Position numbers: made by a program. A stretch of 45,459 bases of DNA. Origin: a virus. Lineage: Duplodnaviria > Heunggongvirae > Uroviricota > Caudoviricetes. The stretch lies in IMG/VR virus record IMGVR_UViG_2651869692_000003; one strand, written 5' to 3'. Within the stretch, counting starts at the first letter, position 1. Every line of letters starts with the position of its first letter. Shown here one piece after another: positions 24,001 to 30,000 of the stretch.

Positions 24001-27000
24001 CCGGTATCCACGCCTGTTAAAAAACAAAAACGGAAGAAAACAGTAACTGACGATGTTAACCCCTGGCTGACTTCCGGAGGATGGTTATGAATCAGAATGA
24101 TATTGAAGCCATGATTCAGCGTTATACGGAAGCTGAAATGGCGGTGCTTGACGGAAAATCCGTCACTTTTAATGGTCAGCAGATGACCATGGAAAACTTA
24201 TCTGAGATCCGGCAGGGGCGGCAGGAGTGGGAGCGCCGCCTTGCGGCTCTGATTACACGACGACGTGGGCATCCCGGGTACCGGCTGGCGAGGTTCTGAT
24301 GGCAATTCTTGATGATGTGATTGGCGTTTTTTCACCAGGATGGAAAGCGGCAAGGCTGCGTTCCCGTGCGGTGATCCAGGCTTATGAGGCCGTAAAAACG
24401 ACGCGGACACACAAAGCCCGACGGGAGAACCGAACTGCCGACCAGTTAAGCCAGTACGGGGCCGTGTCGTTGCGTGAGCAGGCCCGTTACCTTGATAACA
24501 ACCACGATCTGGTCATTGGTGTATTTGACAAGCTGGAAGAACGGGTGGTGGGGAAAAACGGGATTATTGTCGAGCCACATCCGGTATTACGCAATGGGGC
24601 CATTGCCCGTGATCTGGCAGCGGAGATACGTACCCGATGGAGTGAATGGTCTGTCAGTCCGGAGGTCACCGGGCAGTTTACCCGTCCGATGCTGGAACGT
24701 CTGATGCTGCGTACCTGGCTGCGCGATGGTGAGGTGTTTGCCCAGATGGTTTCCGGGCGCATAAACAGCCTGACGCCTTCTGCCGGTGTTCATTTCTGGC
24801 TGGAGGCGCTTGAGCCGGACTTTATTCCCATGACCAGTGATGAGAGCAACAGGCTGAATCAGGGCGTGTTTGTTGATGACTGGGGGCGTCCCGAAAAATA
24901 TCTGGTGTATAAAAGTCGTCCTGTATCCGGACGGCAGATGGAAACCAAAGAAGTGGATGCAGAGCGAATGCTGCATCTTAAATTTGTTCGCCGTCTGCAC
25001 CAGATGCGCGGGACGTCTTTATTGTCCGGTGTGCTGATCCGCCTCAGCGCCCTGAAAGAGTATGAAGATTCTGAGCTGACTGCAGCAAGGATCGCCGCTG
25101 CTCTGGGGATGTACATCCGCAAAGGCGACGGACAGAGCTATGAAACGGATGGTAATGACAGCAAGGAGAATGAACGCGAGCTTACCATTCAGCCAGGCAT
25201 TATTTACGACGATCTGAAACCCGGCGAAGAAATCGGAATGGTGAAGTCGGATCGCCCAAATCCTAACCTTGAAACTTTTCGTAATGGTCAGTTGCGTGCC
25301 GTGGCGGCGGGCAGTCGTCTGAGTTTTTCCAGTACAGCGCGCAACTATAACGGCACTTACAGCGCCCAGCGTCAGGAGCTGGTTGAATCCACTGATGGCT
25401 ACCTGATCCTGCAGGACTGGTTTATTGGTGCCGTCACCCGCCCGATGTATCGTGCCTGGCTGAAACAGGCTGTGGCATCCGGTGTTATCAGGCTACCCCG
25501 CGATCTTGACCGTTCTTCACTGTATACCGCGGTGTATTCCGGACCGGTGATGCCGTGGATTGACCCTGTTAAGGAGGCTGAGGCCTGGAAAATCCAGATT
25601 CGTGGTGGAGCGGCGACAGAATCAGACTGGGTACGTGCAGGTGGTCGTAATCCGGATGATGTCAAACGTCGGCGCAAGGCCGAAATTGATGAAAACCGCA
25701 AGCTGGACCTGGTATTTGATACCGATCCGGCCAGTGATAAAGGAGGCAGCAGTGCCGCAACGAAACGACAGGAGCCGCAGTACACCGACGACCAGTCCGA
25801 AGAATAATTCCTGGTTCAGGATGCAGGCTGGTCACCAGAGTGACGCGGATATTTATATTTATGACGAGATTGGTTTCTGGGGTGTTACAGCGAAGCAGTT
25901 TATCAGTGATCTGAATGCACTGGGCGATATCACCCACATTAATCTCCATATCAATTCACCGGGTGGCGATGTCTTTGAAGGCATCGCCATTTTTAATGCG
26001 CTGAAAACACATGGTGCGTCCATTACCGTTTATGTCGACGGTGTGGCGGCATCAATGGCGTCGGTCATTGCGATGGTGGGAAACCCGGTCATTATGCCGG
26101 AAAACACCTTCATGATGATTCATAAACCATTTGGCTTTACGGGCGGTGATGCGGAGGATATGCGCACCTATGCCGACCTGCTCGATAAAGTTGAGGCGGT
26201 TCTGTTACCCGCTTATGCACAGAAAACCGGGAAAACCACCGATGAAATTGCTGCCATGCTGGCGGATGAGACCTGGATGTCCGGTGCCGAATGTCTGGCA
26301 CATGGATTTGCTGATCAGGTGACGCCAGCCGTTAAGGCAATGGCATGTATTCAGTCAAAACGTACAGAGGAATTTAAAAAGATGCCGGAATCCATTCGAA
26401 ACATGATTACTCCGCCACGCAACAGTGCTCCACGCGTACAGGATAATGAACCTGCAGCTTCCCGGACGCCAGTGCAGGCAGCAGCACCCGTGGTGGATGA
26501 AAACAGTATCCGTGCGCAGGTACTGGCAGAGCAAAAAGCGCGTGTAAATGGTATTAATGATCTGTTTGCCATGTTTGGCGGGCGTTATCAGATGCTGCAG
26601 GCTCAGTGTCTTGCCGATCCTGAATGTTCGCTGGAGCAGGCCCGCGAAAAGCTGTTGAACGAGATGGGGCGCGAGTCCACGCCATCCAATAAAAATACCC
26701 CGGCTCATATTTATGCCGGTAACGGTAATTTTGTGGGGGACGGGATCCGCCAGGCGCTGATGGCGCGTGCCGGATTTGAAAAAACCGAACGTGATAATGT
26801 CTACAACGGGATGACCCTGCGTGAATATGCCCGTATGTCACTGACTGAACGGGGTATTGGGGTTTCCGGTTATAACCCGATGCAGATGGTCGGTGCGGCG
26901 TTCACACACAGTACGTCTGACTTCGGTAATATTCTGTTGGATGTTGCGAACAAAGCCATTCTGCAGGGCTGGGAAGATGCCCCTGAAACCTATGAACAGT

Positions 27001-30000
27001 GGACGCGGAAAGGTCAGTTGTCTGATTTTAAAATTGCCCATCGTGTGGGTATGGGGGGCTTCAGTGCTCTGCGTCAGGTGCGTGAAGGGGCGGAATATAA
27101 ATACGTCACCACCGGAGATAAACAGGCCACTATTGCACTGGCGACCTATGGCGAGCTGTTCAGTATCACCCGTCAGGCCATTATCAATGATGATCTGAAT
27201 ATGCTGACCGATGTCCCGATGAAACTGGGCCGTGCGGCGAAATCCACTATTGCCGATCTGGTTTATGCCATTCTGACGTCTAACCCGAAAATTTCCACAG
27301 ATAATGTAAGTCTGTTCGATAAAGCGAAACATGCAAACGTACTGGAGAGCGCTGCAATGGACGTGGCATCGCTGGATAAAGCCCGCCAGTTGATGCGCGT
27401 TCAGAAAGAGGGGGAGCGTCATCTGAATATTCGTCCTGCGTTCGTACTGGTACCGACGGCGATGGAGTCTGTTGCTAACCAGGTCATTCGCTCCTCAAGT
27501 GTCAAGGGGGCTGACATTAACGCCGGTATTATTAACCCGGTGAAAGATTTTGCGACCGTTATTGCAGAGCCTCGTCTTGATGATAACAGCCAGACCACCT
27601 TCTACCTGGCTGCGTCAAAAGGCTCCGATACGATTGAAGTGGCTTATCTCAACGGTGTGGATACGCCATATATTGATCAGATGGAGGGCTTCAGTGTGGA
27701 TGGCGTGACAACGAAAGTGCGTATTGACGCCGGTGTCGCGCCAGTTGATCACCGCGGTCTGGTGAAATGTACGGCGTAAACGTCGCAGACAACAACTCTG
27801 ATGGCCCGTAAGGGCTTTTTTTGTACCTGAAATCAGCCCTGAACGGGGCTGTGCGGAGACAGTTATGGCAAAGAATTTTGTAGAAGAAGGAAAAACGGTG
27901 GCGATTGTTGCCAGTGCAGCCATCAGCAGCGGAGATCTGGTGCAGGTGGGTGATGTTTTTGCGGTGGCGCTGACCGATATTCCACAGGGTGAAACAGGCG
28001 ACGGCATGACCGAAGGTGTGTTTATGCTGCCTAAGCTGAAAACGGATGACATGAAAACGGGTAAGAAGGTTTATCTGAAGTCAGGAAAAGTTCAGCTGAC
28101 TAACAGCGGCTCTGATCCGCTGGTCGGGGTTGTCTGGGCAGATGCCGGAACCAGTGCAGAAGAAGTGCCGGTAAAACTCAATGTCTGATCCCTTTTCCCG
28201 GCTGGCAGCGCGTATGGATACGATCACGGTCAGAAAGATGGGAAAGACAGCCTCGATTAATGATGCCGATATGACTGTGATCCCGGGAGAAACACTGGCA
28301 GAGCTGAATGCTCTGTCCGGACCTGCGGTCTCTCTGGTGGTGTTTTCTTCGGGATACCGCCCACGGCGCGGGGATCGCGTTGTTTATGACGGACAACAAT
28401 GGACGGTCACACGGCATGAACGCTTTAACGGTAAGCCAATGATCTTTATTGAGTAAAGAGGTATGGGATGAAGGGGCTTGAGAATGCCATCCGTAATCTG
28501 AACAGCCTTGATACCCGGATGGTACCGCAGGCCAGTGCATGGGCGATAAACCGTGTGGCACAGAAAGCCGTTTCGGTTGCCACACATAAGGTCGCACAGA
28601 ATACCGTGGCAGGGGATAACCGGGTGAAGGGGATCCCTTTCCGGCTGGTGAAAGAACGTGCCCGGGTACTGAAAGCCAGTCCGTCAGGAAAAATGTATGC
28701 CCGCATTCGCATTAACCGGGGCAACCTGCCCGCCATTAAGCTGGGGGCAGCCCGGGTCAGACTGGCCCGTCGTGGCGGAAAACTGCGGTACCGTGGCAGT
28801 GTGCTGAAGGTGGGGAAATATCTTTTCCGGGATGCGTTTATTCAGCAACTGGCGAATGGTCGCTGGCATGTGATGCGGCGTATTGATGGCAAAAATCGTT
28901 ACCCCATTGATGTGGTGAAAGTCCCGCTGTCCGGACCGCTGACACAGGCATTTGAAGATGCCCGCGACCGCATCATTGCTGCGGAAATGCCGAAACAGCT
29001 GGGGTATGCACTGAAACAACAACTGAGATTATGGCTGACCCGATGAACCGACATACACAAATCCGCCAGGTCGTACTGGCACGCCTTCGGGAACAGTGTG
29101 GAGACAGCGCCACGTTTTTTGACGGGCTTCCGGCATTTATTGATGCGCAGGAACTGCCTGCCGTGGCGGTGTGGCTGAGTGATGCTCAGTACACCGGAAA
29201 AATGACGGATGAAGATGACTGGCAGGCTGTTCTGCATATTGCCGTCTTCATCCGGGCACAGGCACCGGATTCAGAGCTGGATATGTGGATGGAGAGCACC
29301 ATTTTTCCTGCCCTGAATGATATACCGGCACTTTCCGGACTCATCGACACCCTGATCCCACTCGGTTTTAACTATCAACGTGATAATGAGATGGCCACCT
29401 GGGCGATGGCGGAAATCACGTACCAGATCACGTACACGAATTAAGGAGGTGGTAATGACCACACCAAATCCACTGGCAAAGACGAAAGGTGCGGGGACGA
29501 CGTTCTGGATGTATACCGGCAACGGCGATGCGTTTGCGAATCCTTTGTCGGACACTGACTGGCTGCGTCTTGCGATGGTGAAGGATCTGCAACCTGGCGA
29601 AATGACCGCTGATGCAGAAGATGACACTTATCTCGATGATGAAGATGCAGACTGGAAAACGACAACCCAGGGGCAGAAATCCGTCGGTGATACTTCGGCG
29701 ACGCTGGCCTGGCGTCCGGGTGACAGCGGACAGAAAAAACTGGTTCAGTTGTTCGACTCCGGTGAAGTCTGCGCGTTTCGTATCAAATATCCCAACGGTA
29801 CTGTTGATGTTTTCCGTGGCTGGCTGAGTTCACTGGGTAAAACCATTGCCTCAAAAGACGTGATGACCCGCACCGTGAAAATCAGCGGTGTGGGGCGTCC
29901 ATATCTGGCAGAGGAGGGCACTGAAACCGTGGGCGTTACCGGGCTGACGGTGGCACCGGCATCCGCCAGTGTCAATGTGGGAGCAACCACCACGCTGACC

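What the first reader, a model, noticed from the sequence alone, without database searches (positions are those of the whole stretch)
25821..27779. Protease, scaffold-like linker and major capsid protein in one 652-codon frame
The head module is lambda-like in gene order, but the protease-like and capsid-like domains are a single continuous ORF with a Gln/Ala-rich linker, followed by a terminator-like hairpin. This implies self-processing of a polyprotein during prohead maturation.
Basis: partly seen in the sequence, partly recalled or inferred. Interest (0 to 1): 0.4.

Follow-up and report, generated by a model that had tools for sequence, protein, structure and literature searches.

The report
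Known fused protease-scaffold-capsid phage gene
This is an ordinary, already catalogued prophage head gene (the Gifsy-2 type) in which the head protease, a scaffold segment and the major capsid protein are one reading frame; comparison with relatives suggests it also makes a second, protease-less product from a conserved internal start.

Summary
The ORF is real and both domains are confirmed. Pfam finds a ClpP protease domain and a Phage_capsid_4 domain. NCBIfam NF045540, [quoted passage not shown], scores 985 bits against a cutoff of 475.

The gene is about 99% identical to genes of phages mEp460, cdtI, Tritos and Ayreon. It matches 2125 of 5426 complete E. coli genomes. It is 70% identical over its full length to the Gifsy-2 "tripartite capsid gene" (Effantin et al. 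2010). The fusion itself is therefore already known.

- The likely start is GTG 25752 (675 codons, AAGGAGG Shine-Dalgarno sequence), not ATG 25821.
- The linker is Pro/Ala-rich, not Gln/Ala-rich.
- The hairpin after the stop codon is real and conserved across relatives.

One addition comes from 74 distinct relatives. An AGGA motif at 26368-26371 sits 10 nt before an invariant ATG-CCN at 26382. The motif is kept at the nucleotide level although the encoded residues vary. It is the only conserved Shine-Dalgarno-like site inside the gene. A second fusion family, with a different N-terminal domain, shows the same feature.

This points to a nested start like lambda C/Nu3 that would yield a 465-aa scaffold-capsid protein. 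That step is inferred, not shown. The fusion is of low interest; the internal start is of modest interest.

The parts
25740..25746 (+). AAGGAGG Shine-Dalgarno sequence of the long form, lying inside the 3' end of the portal gene
   Evidence: Sequence read. Duplex energy with the 16S rRNA 3' end is -11.6 kcal/mol. AAAGGAGG is conserved at this place in enterobacterial relatives.
25752..27779 (+). Full gene: ClpP-like prohead protease, linker, helical scaffold-like domain and major capsid protein. 675 codons, 73.5 kDa, GTG start.
   Evidence: PGAP CDS boundaries in a 99.8%-identical genome. NCBIfam NF045540 scores 985 bits against a cutoff of 475. PHROG 133 matches full length. 70% identical to the Gifsy-2 gene.
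25821..25823 (+).
   Evidence: Weak Shine-Dalgarno pairing, -2.2 kcal/mol. This Met is absent in Gifsy-2 and in Pseudomonas, Pasteurellaceae and Shewanella relatives, while the S-W-F/Y motif upstream of it is conserved.
25821..26336 (+). ClpP-fold protease domain (residues ~24-195 in 675-aa numbering). Candidate catalytic Ser101 at 26052-26054 and His124 at 26121-26123. The invariant Glu173 aligns with the ClpP Asp position.
   Evidence: Pfam CLP_protease E 4.5e-36. NF045542 'head maturation protease, ClpP-related' scores 215.8 bits. PDB ClpP sequence hits. AF2 pLDDT 70-86, and Foldseek finds ClpP chains at E ~1e-11. S101, H124 and E173 are invariant in 38 sequences.
26367..26371 (+). Internal Shine-Dalgarno-like GAGGA (core AGGA at 26368-26371), 10 nt upstream of ATG 26382
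   Evidence: AGGA sits at the same column in 96% of 74 distinct relatives and within 2 nt in all of them. It is the only Shine-Dalgarno-like 4-mer conserved above 50% anywhere in the gene. The codon at position 206 ends in G in 73 of 73 sequences although the residue varies (E, Q, K, G). Other conserved E/K/Q columns end in G in 1.5-81% of sequences.
26382..27779 (+). Predicted nested short form (Met211-Pro212 to the end): linker, scaffold-like domain and capsid protein without the protease. 465 aa, 50.7 kDa.
   Evidence: Met211 and Pro212 are invariant in the alignments. Size. This is an inference from comparative data, not shown experimentally.
26406..26498 (+). Pro/Ala/Val-rich flexible linker (residues 219-249), hypervariable in length among relatives
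   Evidence: Composition. Alignment shows length variation of 0 to about 20 residues. AF2 pLDDT below 50.
26499..26672 (+). Small helical, Gln/Ala/Leu-rich scaffold-like domain (residues 250-307)
   Evidence: AF2 places three helices at 250-273, 280-288 and 294-307 with pLDDT 77-87. The domain is conserved in relatives. PHROG 94 and PHROG 53, both named 'head maturation protease', extend through this region.
26880..27767 (+). Major capsid protein core (Phage_capsid_4 / Mu gpT-like, HK97-type)
   Evidence: Pfam PF25209 E 9.5e-55 and PF10124 E 3.8e-08. A profile of this region hits solved capsid chains 8rkc/8rkx ('Mu GpT domain') at E 2e-10 and 9jod at E 1.7e-07. AF2 failed on this part.
27803..27823 (+). 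Terminator-like hairpin GGCCC-GTAA-GGGCT plus a run of seven T
   Evidence: Terminator scan. A hairpin plus T-run at this place is found in nearly all relatives, with different stem sequences in different lineages.
27834..27851 (+). Second GC-rich hairpin (CAGCCC-TGAAC-GGGGCTG), just before the GGAGA ribosome-binding site (27855-27859) of the next gene
   Evidence: Sequence. Conserved in enterobacterial relatives.
27865..28188 (+). Head decoration / cement protein gene (107 aa), the functional partner of the capsid protein
   Evidence: Pfam Phage_cement_2 E 9e-21. The homologous position in MD8 is annotated 'head decoration protein'.
24299..25807 (+). Lambda-family portal gene, whose last 56 nt overlap the start of the fusion gene
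   Evidence: Pfam Phage_portal_2 E 5e-82. PGAP boundaries.

Best explanation
This is a Gifsy-2-type 'tripartite' head gene of an E. coli lambdoid prophage. One frame, 25752-27779, encodes four segments in order:
- an N-terminal ClpP-fold serine protease
- a flexible Pro/Ala linker
- a small helical scaffold-like domain
- a C-terminal HK97-type (Mu gpT-like) major capsid protein

The identity of the gene and its domain architecture are shown here. The next step is inferred from the family. During prohead assembly the capsid portion builds the shell with the N-terminal parts inside. The tethered protease then removes itself and the scaffold. The mature shell is stabilised by the cement protein encoded next.

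A further step is inferred from comparative sequence data. The gene most likely gives two products from one frame. The long form is 73.5 kDa and starts at GTG 25752. The short form is 50.7 kDa, lacks the protease and starts at ATG 26382, behind a conserved internal Shine-Dalgarno sequence. The short form would be the equivalent of HK97 gp5 (delta domain plus capsid protein). The arrangement is comparable to the nested C/Nu3 genes of lambda. The protease-to-capsid ratio would then be set by the relative use of the two starts rather than being fixed at 1:1.
For: **Family identity.**
- NF045540 scores 985 bits against a cutoff of 475.
- Pfam finds CLP_protease and Phage_capsid_4.
- PHROG 133 matches full length.
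- The gene is 99% identical to genes of mEp460, cdtI, Tritos and Ayreon.
- PGAP gives it the fusion-protein name, and it matches 2125 of 5426 E. coli genomes.
- It is 70% identical over its full length to the Gifsy-2 gene.
- The literature describes the fusion in Gifsy-2 and MD8.

**Fold support.**
- The protease model matches ClpP structures.
- The capsid-region profile hits solved Mu-gpT-like capsid chains.
- Catalytic Ser and His are invariant.

**Internal start.**
- Met-Pro is invariant.
- AGGA lies 10 nt upstream at the same column in 96% of 74 distinct relatives, and within 2 nt in all of them.
- It is the only conserved Shine-Dalgarno-like motif in the gene.
- The third codon position is G in 73 of 73 sequences, across residues E, Q, K and G. 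This holds even in AT-rich Pasteurellaceae, where GAG makes up only 12-30% of Glu codons.
- The naive product of expected frequencies over 48 lineages that are less than 80% identical at the nucleotide level is about 1e-20.
- A second fusion family with a non-ClpP N-terminal domain also has a Shine-Dalgarno-like motif plus ATG at the same domain boundary in about 22 of 27 members. The ATG is followed by a Pro codon in most of these.
- Recombination junctions fall at the two linkers, so the parts behave as modules.
Against: - No protein, ribosome-profiling or transcript data were available, so use of the internal start and the cleavage events are not shown.
- The spacing between Shine-Dalgarno sequence and ATG (10 nt after AGGA) is at the long end of the functional range.
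- The internal pairing is moderate, -6.0 kcal/mol in this window.
- The motif overlaps codons for a conserved acidic residue, so part of its conservation is coding constraint.
- Sequences in the comparison are related by descent, so the 1e-20 figure overstates significance.
- AlphaFold2 did not give a usable model of the capsid part, so the HK97 fold rests on profile matches and on published work on Gifsy-2 and MD8.
- The primary Gifsy-2 paper could not be read. I therefore do not know the experimentally determined cleavage site, or whether an internal start was already considered or excluded there.
Confidence: 0.6

Rival explanations
1. Pure polyprotein. Only the full-length protease-scaffold-capsid chain is made, so every capsid subunit carries its own protease, and all of them are removed by self-cleavage. 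The conserved AGGA...ATG would then be a by-product of coding or of some other nucleotide-level constraint. The family identity is the same as in the best explanation.
For: - The frame is continuous and the fusion is conserved in more than 80 lineages.
- The long-form start has by far the stronger Shine-Dalgarno sequence, -11.6 against -6.0 kcal/mol.
- Published descriptions I could read speak only of a fused or single gene.
- The AGGA motif encodes part of a conserved E/D position.
Against: - The synonymous third position upstream is G in 73 of 73 sequences although residues vary, unlike every other E/K/Q column.
- This is the only Shine-Dalgarno-like motif conserved in about 2 kb of gene, and an invariant ATG sits at a fixed distance from it.
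- The same feature recurs at the same domain boundary in a second family with an unrelated N-terminal domain.
Confidence: 0.36
2. Separate protease and capsid proteins are made by programmed frameshifting or termination near the domain boundary. In this window the stretch TTT AAA AAG at 26373-26381 resembles a slippery site preceded by a Shine-Dalgarno-like motif, as in dnaX.
For: In this window a Shine-Dalgarno-like GAGGA lies just upstream of T-AAA-AAG.
Against: - The A-rich stretch is not conserved. Relatives have GAC GCT, GCC CAC, TCA TCT and others at this place, while the Shine-Dalgarno-like motif and the ATG are kept.
- The heptamer is T AAA AAG, not the canonical A AAA AAG.
- No conserved downstream stem-loop was looked for or seen.
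Confidence: 0.02
3. The fusion is an artefact: a sequencing or assembly error, or a decaying prophage in which a stop codon between two genes was lost.
For: None found.
Against: - The same uninterrupted frame covers at least 80% of the query in 2017 complete E. coli genomes.
- It is present in isolated, plaque-forming phages such as mEp460, cdtI, Tritos and Ayreon.
- It is present in Gifsy-2 and MD8.
- It is present in 80 species-level genomes from Enterobacterales to Pseudomonas, Shewanella and Pasteurellaceae.
Confidence: 0.01

Closest known systems
Salmonella phage Gifsy-2 'tripartite capsid gene' (STM1034.3n.Gifsy2 / STM1033 region; Effantin et al. 2010, Virology 402:355)
   Same: - 70% identical over the whole length.
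- Same three-part order: ClpP-like protease, central domain, capsid protein.
- Same neighbours: lambda-type portal upstream and a ~107-aa cement protein downstream.
- Same hairpin plus T-run after the stop codon.
- The internal GAGGA...ATG-CC is also present.
   Different: The linker differs in length and sequence. Gifsy-2 has been studied by cryo-EM, according to citing papers. This copy is known only from sequence.
NCBIfam NF045540 (scaf_prot_MCP1), 'ClpP-like prohead protease/major capsid protein fusion protein', and E. coli phages mEp460, cdtI, Tritos and Ayreon
   Same: Full-length match far above the curated cutoff. The gene is about 99% identical at the DNA level to the genes of these phages.
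   Different: Nothing of substance. Deposited phage annotations often start at the downstream ATG and name the product variously as protease, Nu3 or major head protein.
Pseudomonas phage MD8 gp5 (Evseev et al. 2021, PMC8508860)
   Same: 57% identical, with the same architecture and gene neighbourhood. [quoted passage not shown]
   Different: Different host clade, a longer Ala/Pro linker, and CAGGAG instead of GAGGA as the internal motif. The passages I retrieved from that paper do not mention an internal start.
Phage lambda C / Nu3 / E (nested protease-scaffold genes plus a separate capsid gene)
   Same: Lambda-type terminase, portal and tail genes surround the gene. The protease is followed by a scaffold in one frame. 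Lambda's scaffold Nu3 is made from within gene C (Shaw & Murialdo 1980, as listed). The internal start predicted here lies at the equivalent protease/scaffold boundary.
   Different: In lambda the capsid protein E is a separate gene and the decoration gene D lies between Nu3 and E. That the lambda protease belongs to a different peptidase family of the same clan is from my own knowledge and was not tested here.
Phage HK97 gp4 protease and gp5 (delta domain fused to the capsid protein)
   Same: The scaffold function is fused to the N-terminus of the capsid protein and removed by the head protease (summarised in PMC8508860). The predicted short form here would be the direct counterpart of gp5.
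   Different: The HK97 protease is a separate gene. HK97 stabilises its shell by covalent cross-links, according to PMC8538268. This module instead carries a cement protein gene.
NCBIfam NF045541 (scaf_prot_MCP2), 'prohead protease/major capsid protein fusion protein', e.g. the Ralstonia phage YO178_1 ORF
   Same: The scaffold and capsid portions are homologous. Reader residues 199-649 match this model at 402.7 bits, below its 525-bit cutoff. YO178_1 is 31% identical over residues 201-649. A Shine-Dalgarno-like motif plus ATG-CCN lies at the domain boundary.
   Different: The N-terminal domain is not ClpP-like; Pfam finds no CLP_protease domain in it. The window protein is therefore not a member of this family.

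Membership tests
NCBIfam NF045540, ClpP-like prohead protease/major capsid protein fusion protein | Full-length HMM score above the curated cutoff | tested here: met
   985.4 bits against a cutoff of 475. Reader residues 9-651 align to profile positions 2-651 of 652.
NCBIfam NF045540, ClpP-like prohead protease/major capsid protein fusion protein | N-terminal ClpP-fold serine protease domain with the catalytic Ser and His | tested here: met
   Pfam CLP_protease E 4.5e-36. NF045542 scores 215.8 bits against a cutoff of 120. Foldseek matches ClpP chains with target TM-score 0.70-0.79. Ser101 and His124 are invariant. Glu173 is invariant at the position that aligns with the ClpP Asp.
NCBIfam NF045540, ClpP-like prohead protease/major capsid protein fusion protein | C-terminal HK97-type major capsid protein domain | tested here: met
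   At the sequence level: Pfam Phage_capsid_4 E 9.5e-55, and profile hits to solved Mu-gpT-like capsid chains 8rkc/8rkx at E 2e-10. Structure prediction of this part was inconclusive, with pLDDT below 50.
NCBIfam NF045540, ClpP-like prohead protease/major capsid protein fusion protein | Both domains in one uninterrupted reading frame, conserved in relatives | tested here: met
   for this window. The frame covers at least 80% of the query in 2017 E. coli genomes and is found in 80 species-level genomes.
Gifsy-2-type tripartite capsid gene (Effantin et al. 2010) | Orthology with the Gifsy-2 gene and the same head-module context (portal upstream, cement protein downstream) | tested here: met
   70% identity over 652 aa. 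Matching neighbours.
Gifsy-2-type tripartite capsid gene (Effantin et al. 2010) | Proteolytic removal of protease and central domain, leaving only the C-terminal part in mature T=7 capsids | not testable with these tools
   This needs virion protein analysis. The primary paper is not held in the library. T=7 is listed for Gifsy-2 in PMC8814770.
Nested in-frame protease/scaffold genes (lambda C/Nu3 type) | An internal in-frame translation start at the protease/scaffold boundary giving a second product with the same C-terminus | tested here: inconclusive
   A conserved Shine-Dalgarno-like motif plus an invariant ATG, with nucleotide-level conservation beyond the coding constraint, argue for it. 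Translation from this site was not and cannot be observed here.
Nested in-frame protease/scaffold genes (lambda C/Nu3 type) | Capsid protein encoded by a separate gene | tested here: not met
   The capsid domain is in the same frame with no stop codon. The gene works like lambda C/Nu3 in part but is not a member of that arrangement.
HK97 gp4/gp5 type | Separate protease gene, and a capsid protein with an N-terminal delta domain | tested here: not met
   The protease is fused. Only the predicted short form would resemble gp5.
NCBIfam NF045541 (scaf_prot_MCP2) | Score above the curated cutoff | tested here: not met
   402.7 bits against a cutoff of 525, and only residues 199-649 align.

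The most novel reading that the evidence does not exclude
The fused protease-scaffold-capsid genes are not simple polyproteins but nested gene pairs. A conserved internal ribosome-binding site at the protease/scaffold boundary (here AGGA 26368-26371 plus ATG 26382) would produce a protease-less scaffold-capsid subunit that builds most of the shell. The full-length chain would be a minority subunit that carries the protease into the prohead. The same solution appears in two fusion families with unrelated N-terminal domains. That would make it a general way of setting protease dosage in these heads.
Probability: 0.55. Interest if true: 0.4.

Novelty: already known. Interest (0 to 1): 0.22.

Why it matters
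The fusion itself matters little. It is a catalogued gene type found in about two-fifths of complete E. coli genomes and studied in Gifsy-2.

Two practical points follow from this check:
- Many deposited phage records start the gene at the downstream ATG and name it inconsistently (protease C, Nu3, major head protein). Annotation of this common gene could be harmonised on the upstream start.
- If the conserved internal start is used, it answers an obvious puzzle of the fused design: how a head avoids carrying one protease per capsid subunit. It would also link the lambda C/Nu3, HK97 gp5 and Gifsy-2 arrangements as variations on one theme. That idea can be tested with one mutant and one gel.

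Tried and rejected
1. **AlphaFold2, full-length.** The 675-aa protein was run with a 38-sequence alignment. The protease and the central helical domain came out acceptable, but the capsid part was unusable, with pLDDT below 50.
2. **AlphaFold2, capsid part alone.** A second run with 54 sequences gave mean pLDDT 36. No fold search of the capsid domain was therefore possible. I used a profile search of PDB sequences instead.
3. **Primary Gifsy-2 paper.** It is not held in the library. Searches for text describing cleavage sites or an internal start in this gene type found nothing relevant.
4. **ATG 25821 as the start.** Rejected in favour of GTG 25752.
5. **Programmed -1 frameshift at TTT AAA AAG.** Rejected because the stretch is not conserved.
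6. **Sequencing error or pseudogene fusion.** Rejected.
7. **Other in-frame ATG/GTG codons with Shine-Dalgarno-like upstream sequence.** Examples are 26160 (spacing too short, inside the protease core) and 27696 (near the C-terminus). None is conserved across relatives.
8. **G/GT tail-chaperone slippery site near 30640.** A quick look found no canonical heptamer in the right place, and I did not pursue it.

Full report
**Observation**

The window has an uninterrupted frame from ATG 25821 to the stop codon ending at 27779, 652 codons. The frame stays open upstream to 25560.

Pfam finds a Clp protease domain at reader residues 23-168 (E 4.5e-36). It finds a Phage_capsid_4 domain at residues 354-649 (E 9.5e-55), with a weaker Mu gpT match.

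The surrounding genes form a lambda-type head and tail module:
- DUF1441 small terminase
- gpA-type large terminase
- a small ORF at the W position
- lambda-family portal
- this gene
- a 107-aa cement protein (Phage_cement_2)
- Z, U and V homologues

A short hairpin, GGCCC-GTAA-GGGCT followed by seven T, lies 24 nt after the stop codon.

**What it is**

NCBIfam model NF045540 is named [quoted passage not shown]. It matches end to end at 985 bits against a curated cutoff of 475. PHROG 133 matches over the full length.

The DNA is 98-99% identical to the corresponding gene of isolated E. coli phages mEp460, cdtI, Tritos, Ayreon and others. It matches 2125 of 5426 complete E. coli genomes, where PGAP, NCBI's annotation pipeline, gives it that same name.

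The protein is 70% identical over its whole length to the Gifsy-2 gene. [quoted passage not shown] 2010). I could see this paper only through citing papers. [quoted passage not shown] The fused frame is also present in 80 species-level genomes from Enterobacterales, Pasteurellaceae, Shewanella, Pseudomonas, Photobacterium and others. It is therefore neither an error nor a local oddity. The window itself is E. coli chromosome carrying a lambdoid prophage.

**Fold checks**

The protease part of an AlphaFold2 model has pLDDT 70-86. It superposes on solved ClpP structures with target TM-score 0.70-0.79 and rmsd about 2.4 A.

Ser101 and His124 (numbering from GTG 25752) are invariant in 38 relatives. 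So is Glu173, which aligns with the Asp of the ClpP triad.

The model gives a disordered Pro/Ala-rich linker at residues 219-249. After it comes a confident three-helix domain at residues 250-307.

The capsid part could not be modelled in two attempts. A profile of that region does hit solved Mu-gpT-type capsid chains 8rkc/8rkx at E 2e-10 and 9jod at E 1.7e-07.

*Start codon.* PGAP begins the gene 69 nt upstream, at GTG 25752, overlapping the portal gene by 56 nt. That GTG has AAGGAGG 5 nt upstream, with duplex energy -11.6 kcal/mol. ATG 25821 has essentially no Shine-Dalgarno sequence, at -2.2 kcal/mol.

Gifsy-2 and the Pseudomonas, Pasteurellaceae and Shewanella relatives have Ile, Leu or another residue in place of that Met. 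The gene is therefore most likely 675 codons, 73.5 kDa.

*Linker.* The low-complexity linker is Pro/Ala/Val-rich and varies in length among relatives. The Gln/Ala-rich stretch is the helical domain behind it.

**Internal start**

I scanned every in-frame start codon for pairing to the 16S rRNA 3' end. I then compared 74 distinct relatives at the codon level.

One site stands out. It is preceded at a fixed distance by AGGA at 26368-26371.

The two codons that carry the motif encode different residue pairs in different lineages: EE, ED, QE, KD, KE and GD. In two lineages with a one-codon deletion the pair is ME. The nucleotides AGGA or GGAG are nevertheless kept.

The first of these codons ends in G in 73 of 73 sequences. 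The 21 other conserved E/K/Q columns of the gene end in G in 1.5-81% of sequences. This holds even in Pasteurellaceae, where GAG makes up only 12-30% of Glu codons in the same gene.

A Shine-Dalgarno-like 4-mer is present at this column in 96% of sequences, and within 2 nt in all of them. The next best position anywhere in the gene reaches 49%.

Between lineage representatives, third positions of identical residues are only 45% identical on average, so silent sites are well mixed. The naive joint probability over 48 representatives is about 1e-20. That figure overstates significance because the sequences are related.

A second fusion family has a homologous scaffold-capsid part but a non-ClpP N-terminal domain. 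It is exemplified by a Ralstonia phage ORF. It has the same signature at the same boundary in about 22 of 27 members, again with varying residues.

The simplest reading is a conserved internal ribosome-binding site. It would yield a 465-aa, 50.7-kDa protein made of linker, scaffold-like domain and capsid protein, without the protease.

**Likely mechanism**

*Shown:* the gene encodes protease, linker, helical domain and capsid domain in one frame, next to a cement-protein gene.

*Inferred from the family and from established knowledge of HK97 and lambda head assembly (summarised):*
- The capsid domains assemble the prohead shell around the portal, with the N-terminal segments inside.
- The helical domain acts as the scaffold.
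- The tethered ClpP-like protease digests itself and the scaffold.
- The shell expands on DNA packaging and is stabilised by the cement protein.

*Inferred from the comparative data here:* most subunits are probably the short form, functionally like HK97 gp5 with its delta domain. The long form then delivers a limited number of protease copies. This parallels lambda, where the scaffold Nu3 is read from within the protease gene C (Shaw & Murialdo 1980, cited). From my own knowledge, phage Mu genes I/Z are arranged similarly; this was not checked here.

I put about 0.6 on the two-product version and about 0.36 on the pure polyprotein.

**Other readings considered**

A frameshift reading is not supported, because the A-rich stretch before the ATG is not conserved.

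**The hairpin**

A stem-loop followed by a T-run directly after the stop codon is found in nearly all relatives. The stem sequences differ between lineages:
- GCCC-tetraloop-GGGC in Enterobacterales
- longer GC stems in Pseudomonas
- AT-richer stems in Pasteurellaceae

In Enterobacterales a second GC hairpin abuts the ribosome-binding site of the cement gene. The feature is real and conserved.

Its role is not settled by my data. It could be partial termination or a protective 3' end for the highly expressed capsid message. Full termination seems unlikely. The cement-protein gene and the tail genes lie directly downstream on the same strand. I also expect the cement protein to be needed in about the same amount as the capsid protein.

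**Comparison and novelty**

The finding is a member of a known, curated and very common family, so the fusion is already known.

It differs from lambda in two ways: the capsid protein is fused, and the decoration gene comes after it. It differs from HK97 in having the protease fused, and a cement protein instead of cross-links.

The internal start is the only element I did not find described. The MD8 passages I retrieved do not mention it. The primary Gifsy-2 paper was not available, so its novelty is uncertain.

**Verdict**

- Observation confirmed.
- Interpretation supported, with the amendments above.
- Novelty: already known.
- Interest: low (0.22), with a modest upside if the nested start is verified.

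Noticed in passing
window 25752-25807: The fusion gene most likely starts at GTG 25752 with an AAGGAGG Shine-Dalgarno sequence at 25740-25746, inside the last 56 nt of the portal gene. Many deposited phage records start it at ATG 25821 instead and name it inconsistently (protease C, Nu3, major head protein).
   Followed up: yes
window 26358-26384: There is a conserved internal Shine-Dalgarno-like AGGA plus an invariant ATG-CCN at the protease/scaffold boundary. The Lys203-Arg204 codons AAA CGN just upstream are also conserved at the nucleotide level: AAA in 98.5% of relatives, even in GC-rich Pseudomonas.
   Followed up: yes
window 27803-27859: Two hairpins lie between the capsid gene and the cement gene. 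The first carries a T7 run. The second abuts the cement gene's ribosome-binding site. A hairpin plus T-run at this place is conserved across genera with different stem sequences. In this window the second stem has lost one C relative to close relatives, and the predicted minimum-energy fold then pairs the two hairpins with each other.
   Followed up: partly
window 25752-27779 compared with proteins P0067, P0076 and P0083: There is module-level mosaicism inside the single ORF. P0083 is 99.5% identical in the protease but 77% in scaffold and capsid. P0067 is 95-96% in protease and scaffold but 77% in capsid. P0076 is 81%, 68% and 93% respectively. Recombination junctions appear to fall at the two linkers.
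   Followed up: partly
L085:1829-3922 and loci L086-L114: A second protease-scaffold-capsid fusion family exists (Ralstonia phage YO178_1 and IMG/VR relatives). Its N-terminal domain is not ClpP-like, and its scaffold-capsid part is homologous to the window gene. Most members also have a Shine-Dalgarno-like motif plus ATG at the domain boundary.
   Followed up: partly
window 1-4339: The left end matches all 5426 E. coli genomes, so it is host chromosome. A tyrosine integrase ORF lies at 3266-4339 on the minus strand. The window is therefore an integrated lambdoid prophage with its left junction near 3200.
   Followed up: partly
window 30219-30236 and 20187-20207: Two further strong terminator-like hairpins lie on the plus strand. 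GCCCCGG-TTAT-CCGGGGC plus a T run follows the major tail protein gene. A 9-bp stem plus a T run lies at 20187-20207, downstream of the ORF that ends at 20155.
   Followed up: no
window 42000-45459: G+C content drops to 0.38-0.42 at the right end, against 0.52-0.59 in the structural genes. This suggests acquired cargo genes or the prophage's right boundary.
   Followed up: no
window 24087-24299: A small ORF between the terminase and portal genes has no Pfam match. It sits at the position of lambda W and is annotated 'head-to-tail joining protein W' or 'Ad1 adapter' in related phage records.
   Followed up: no
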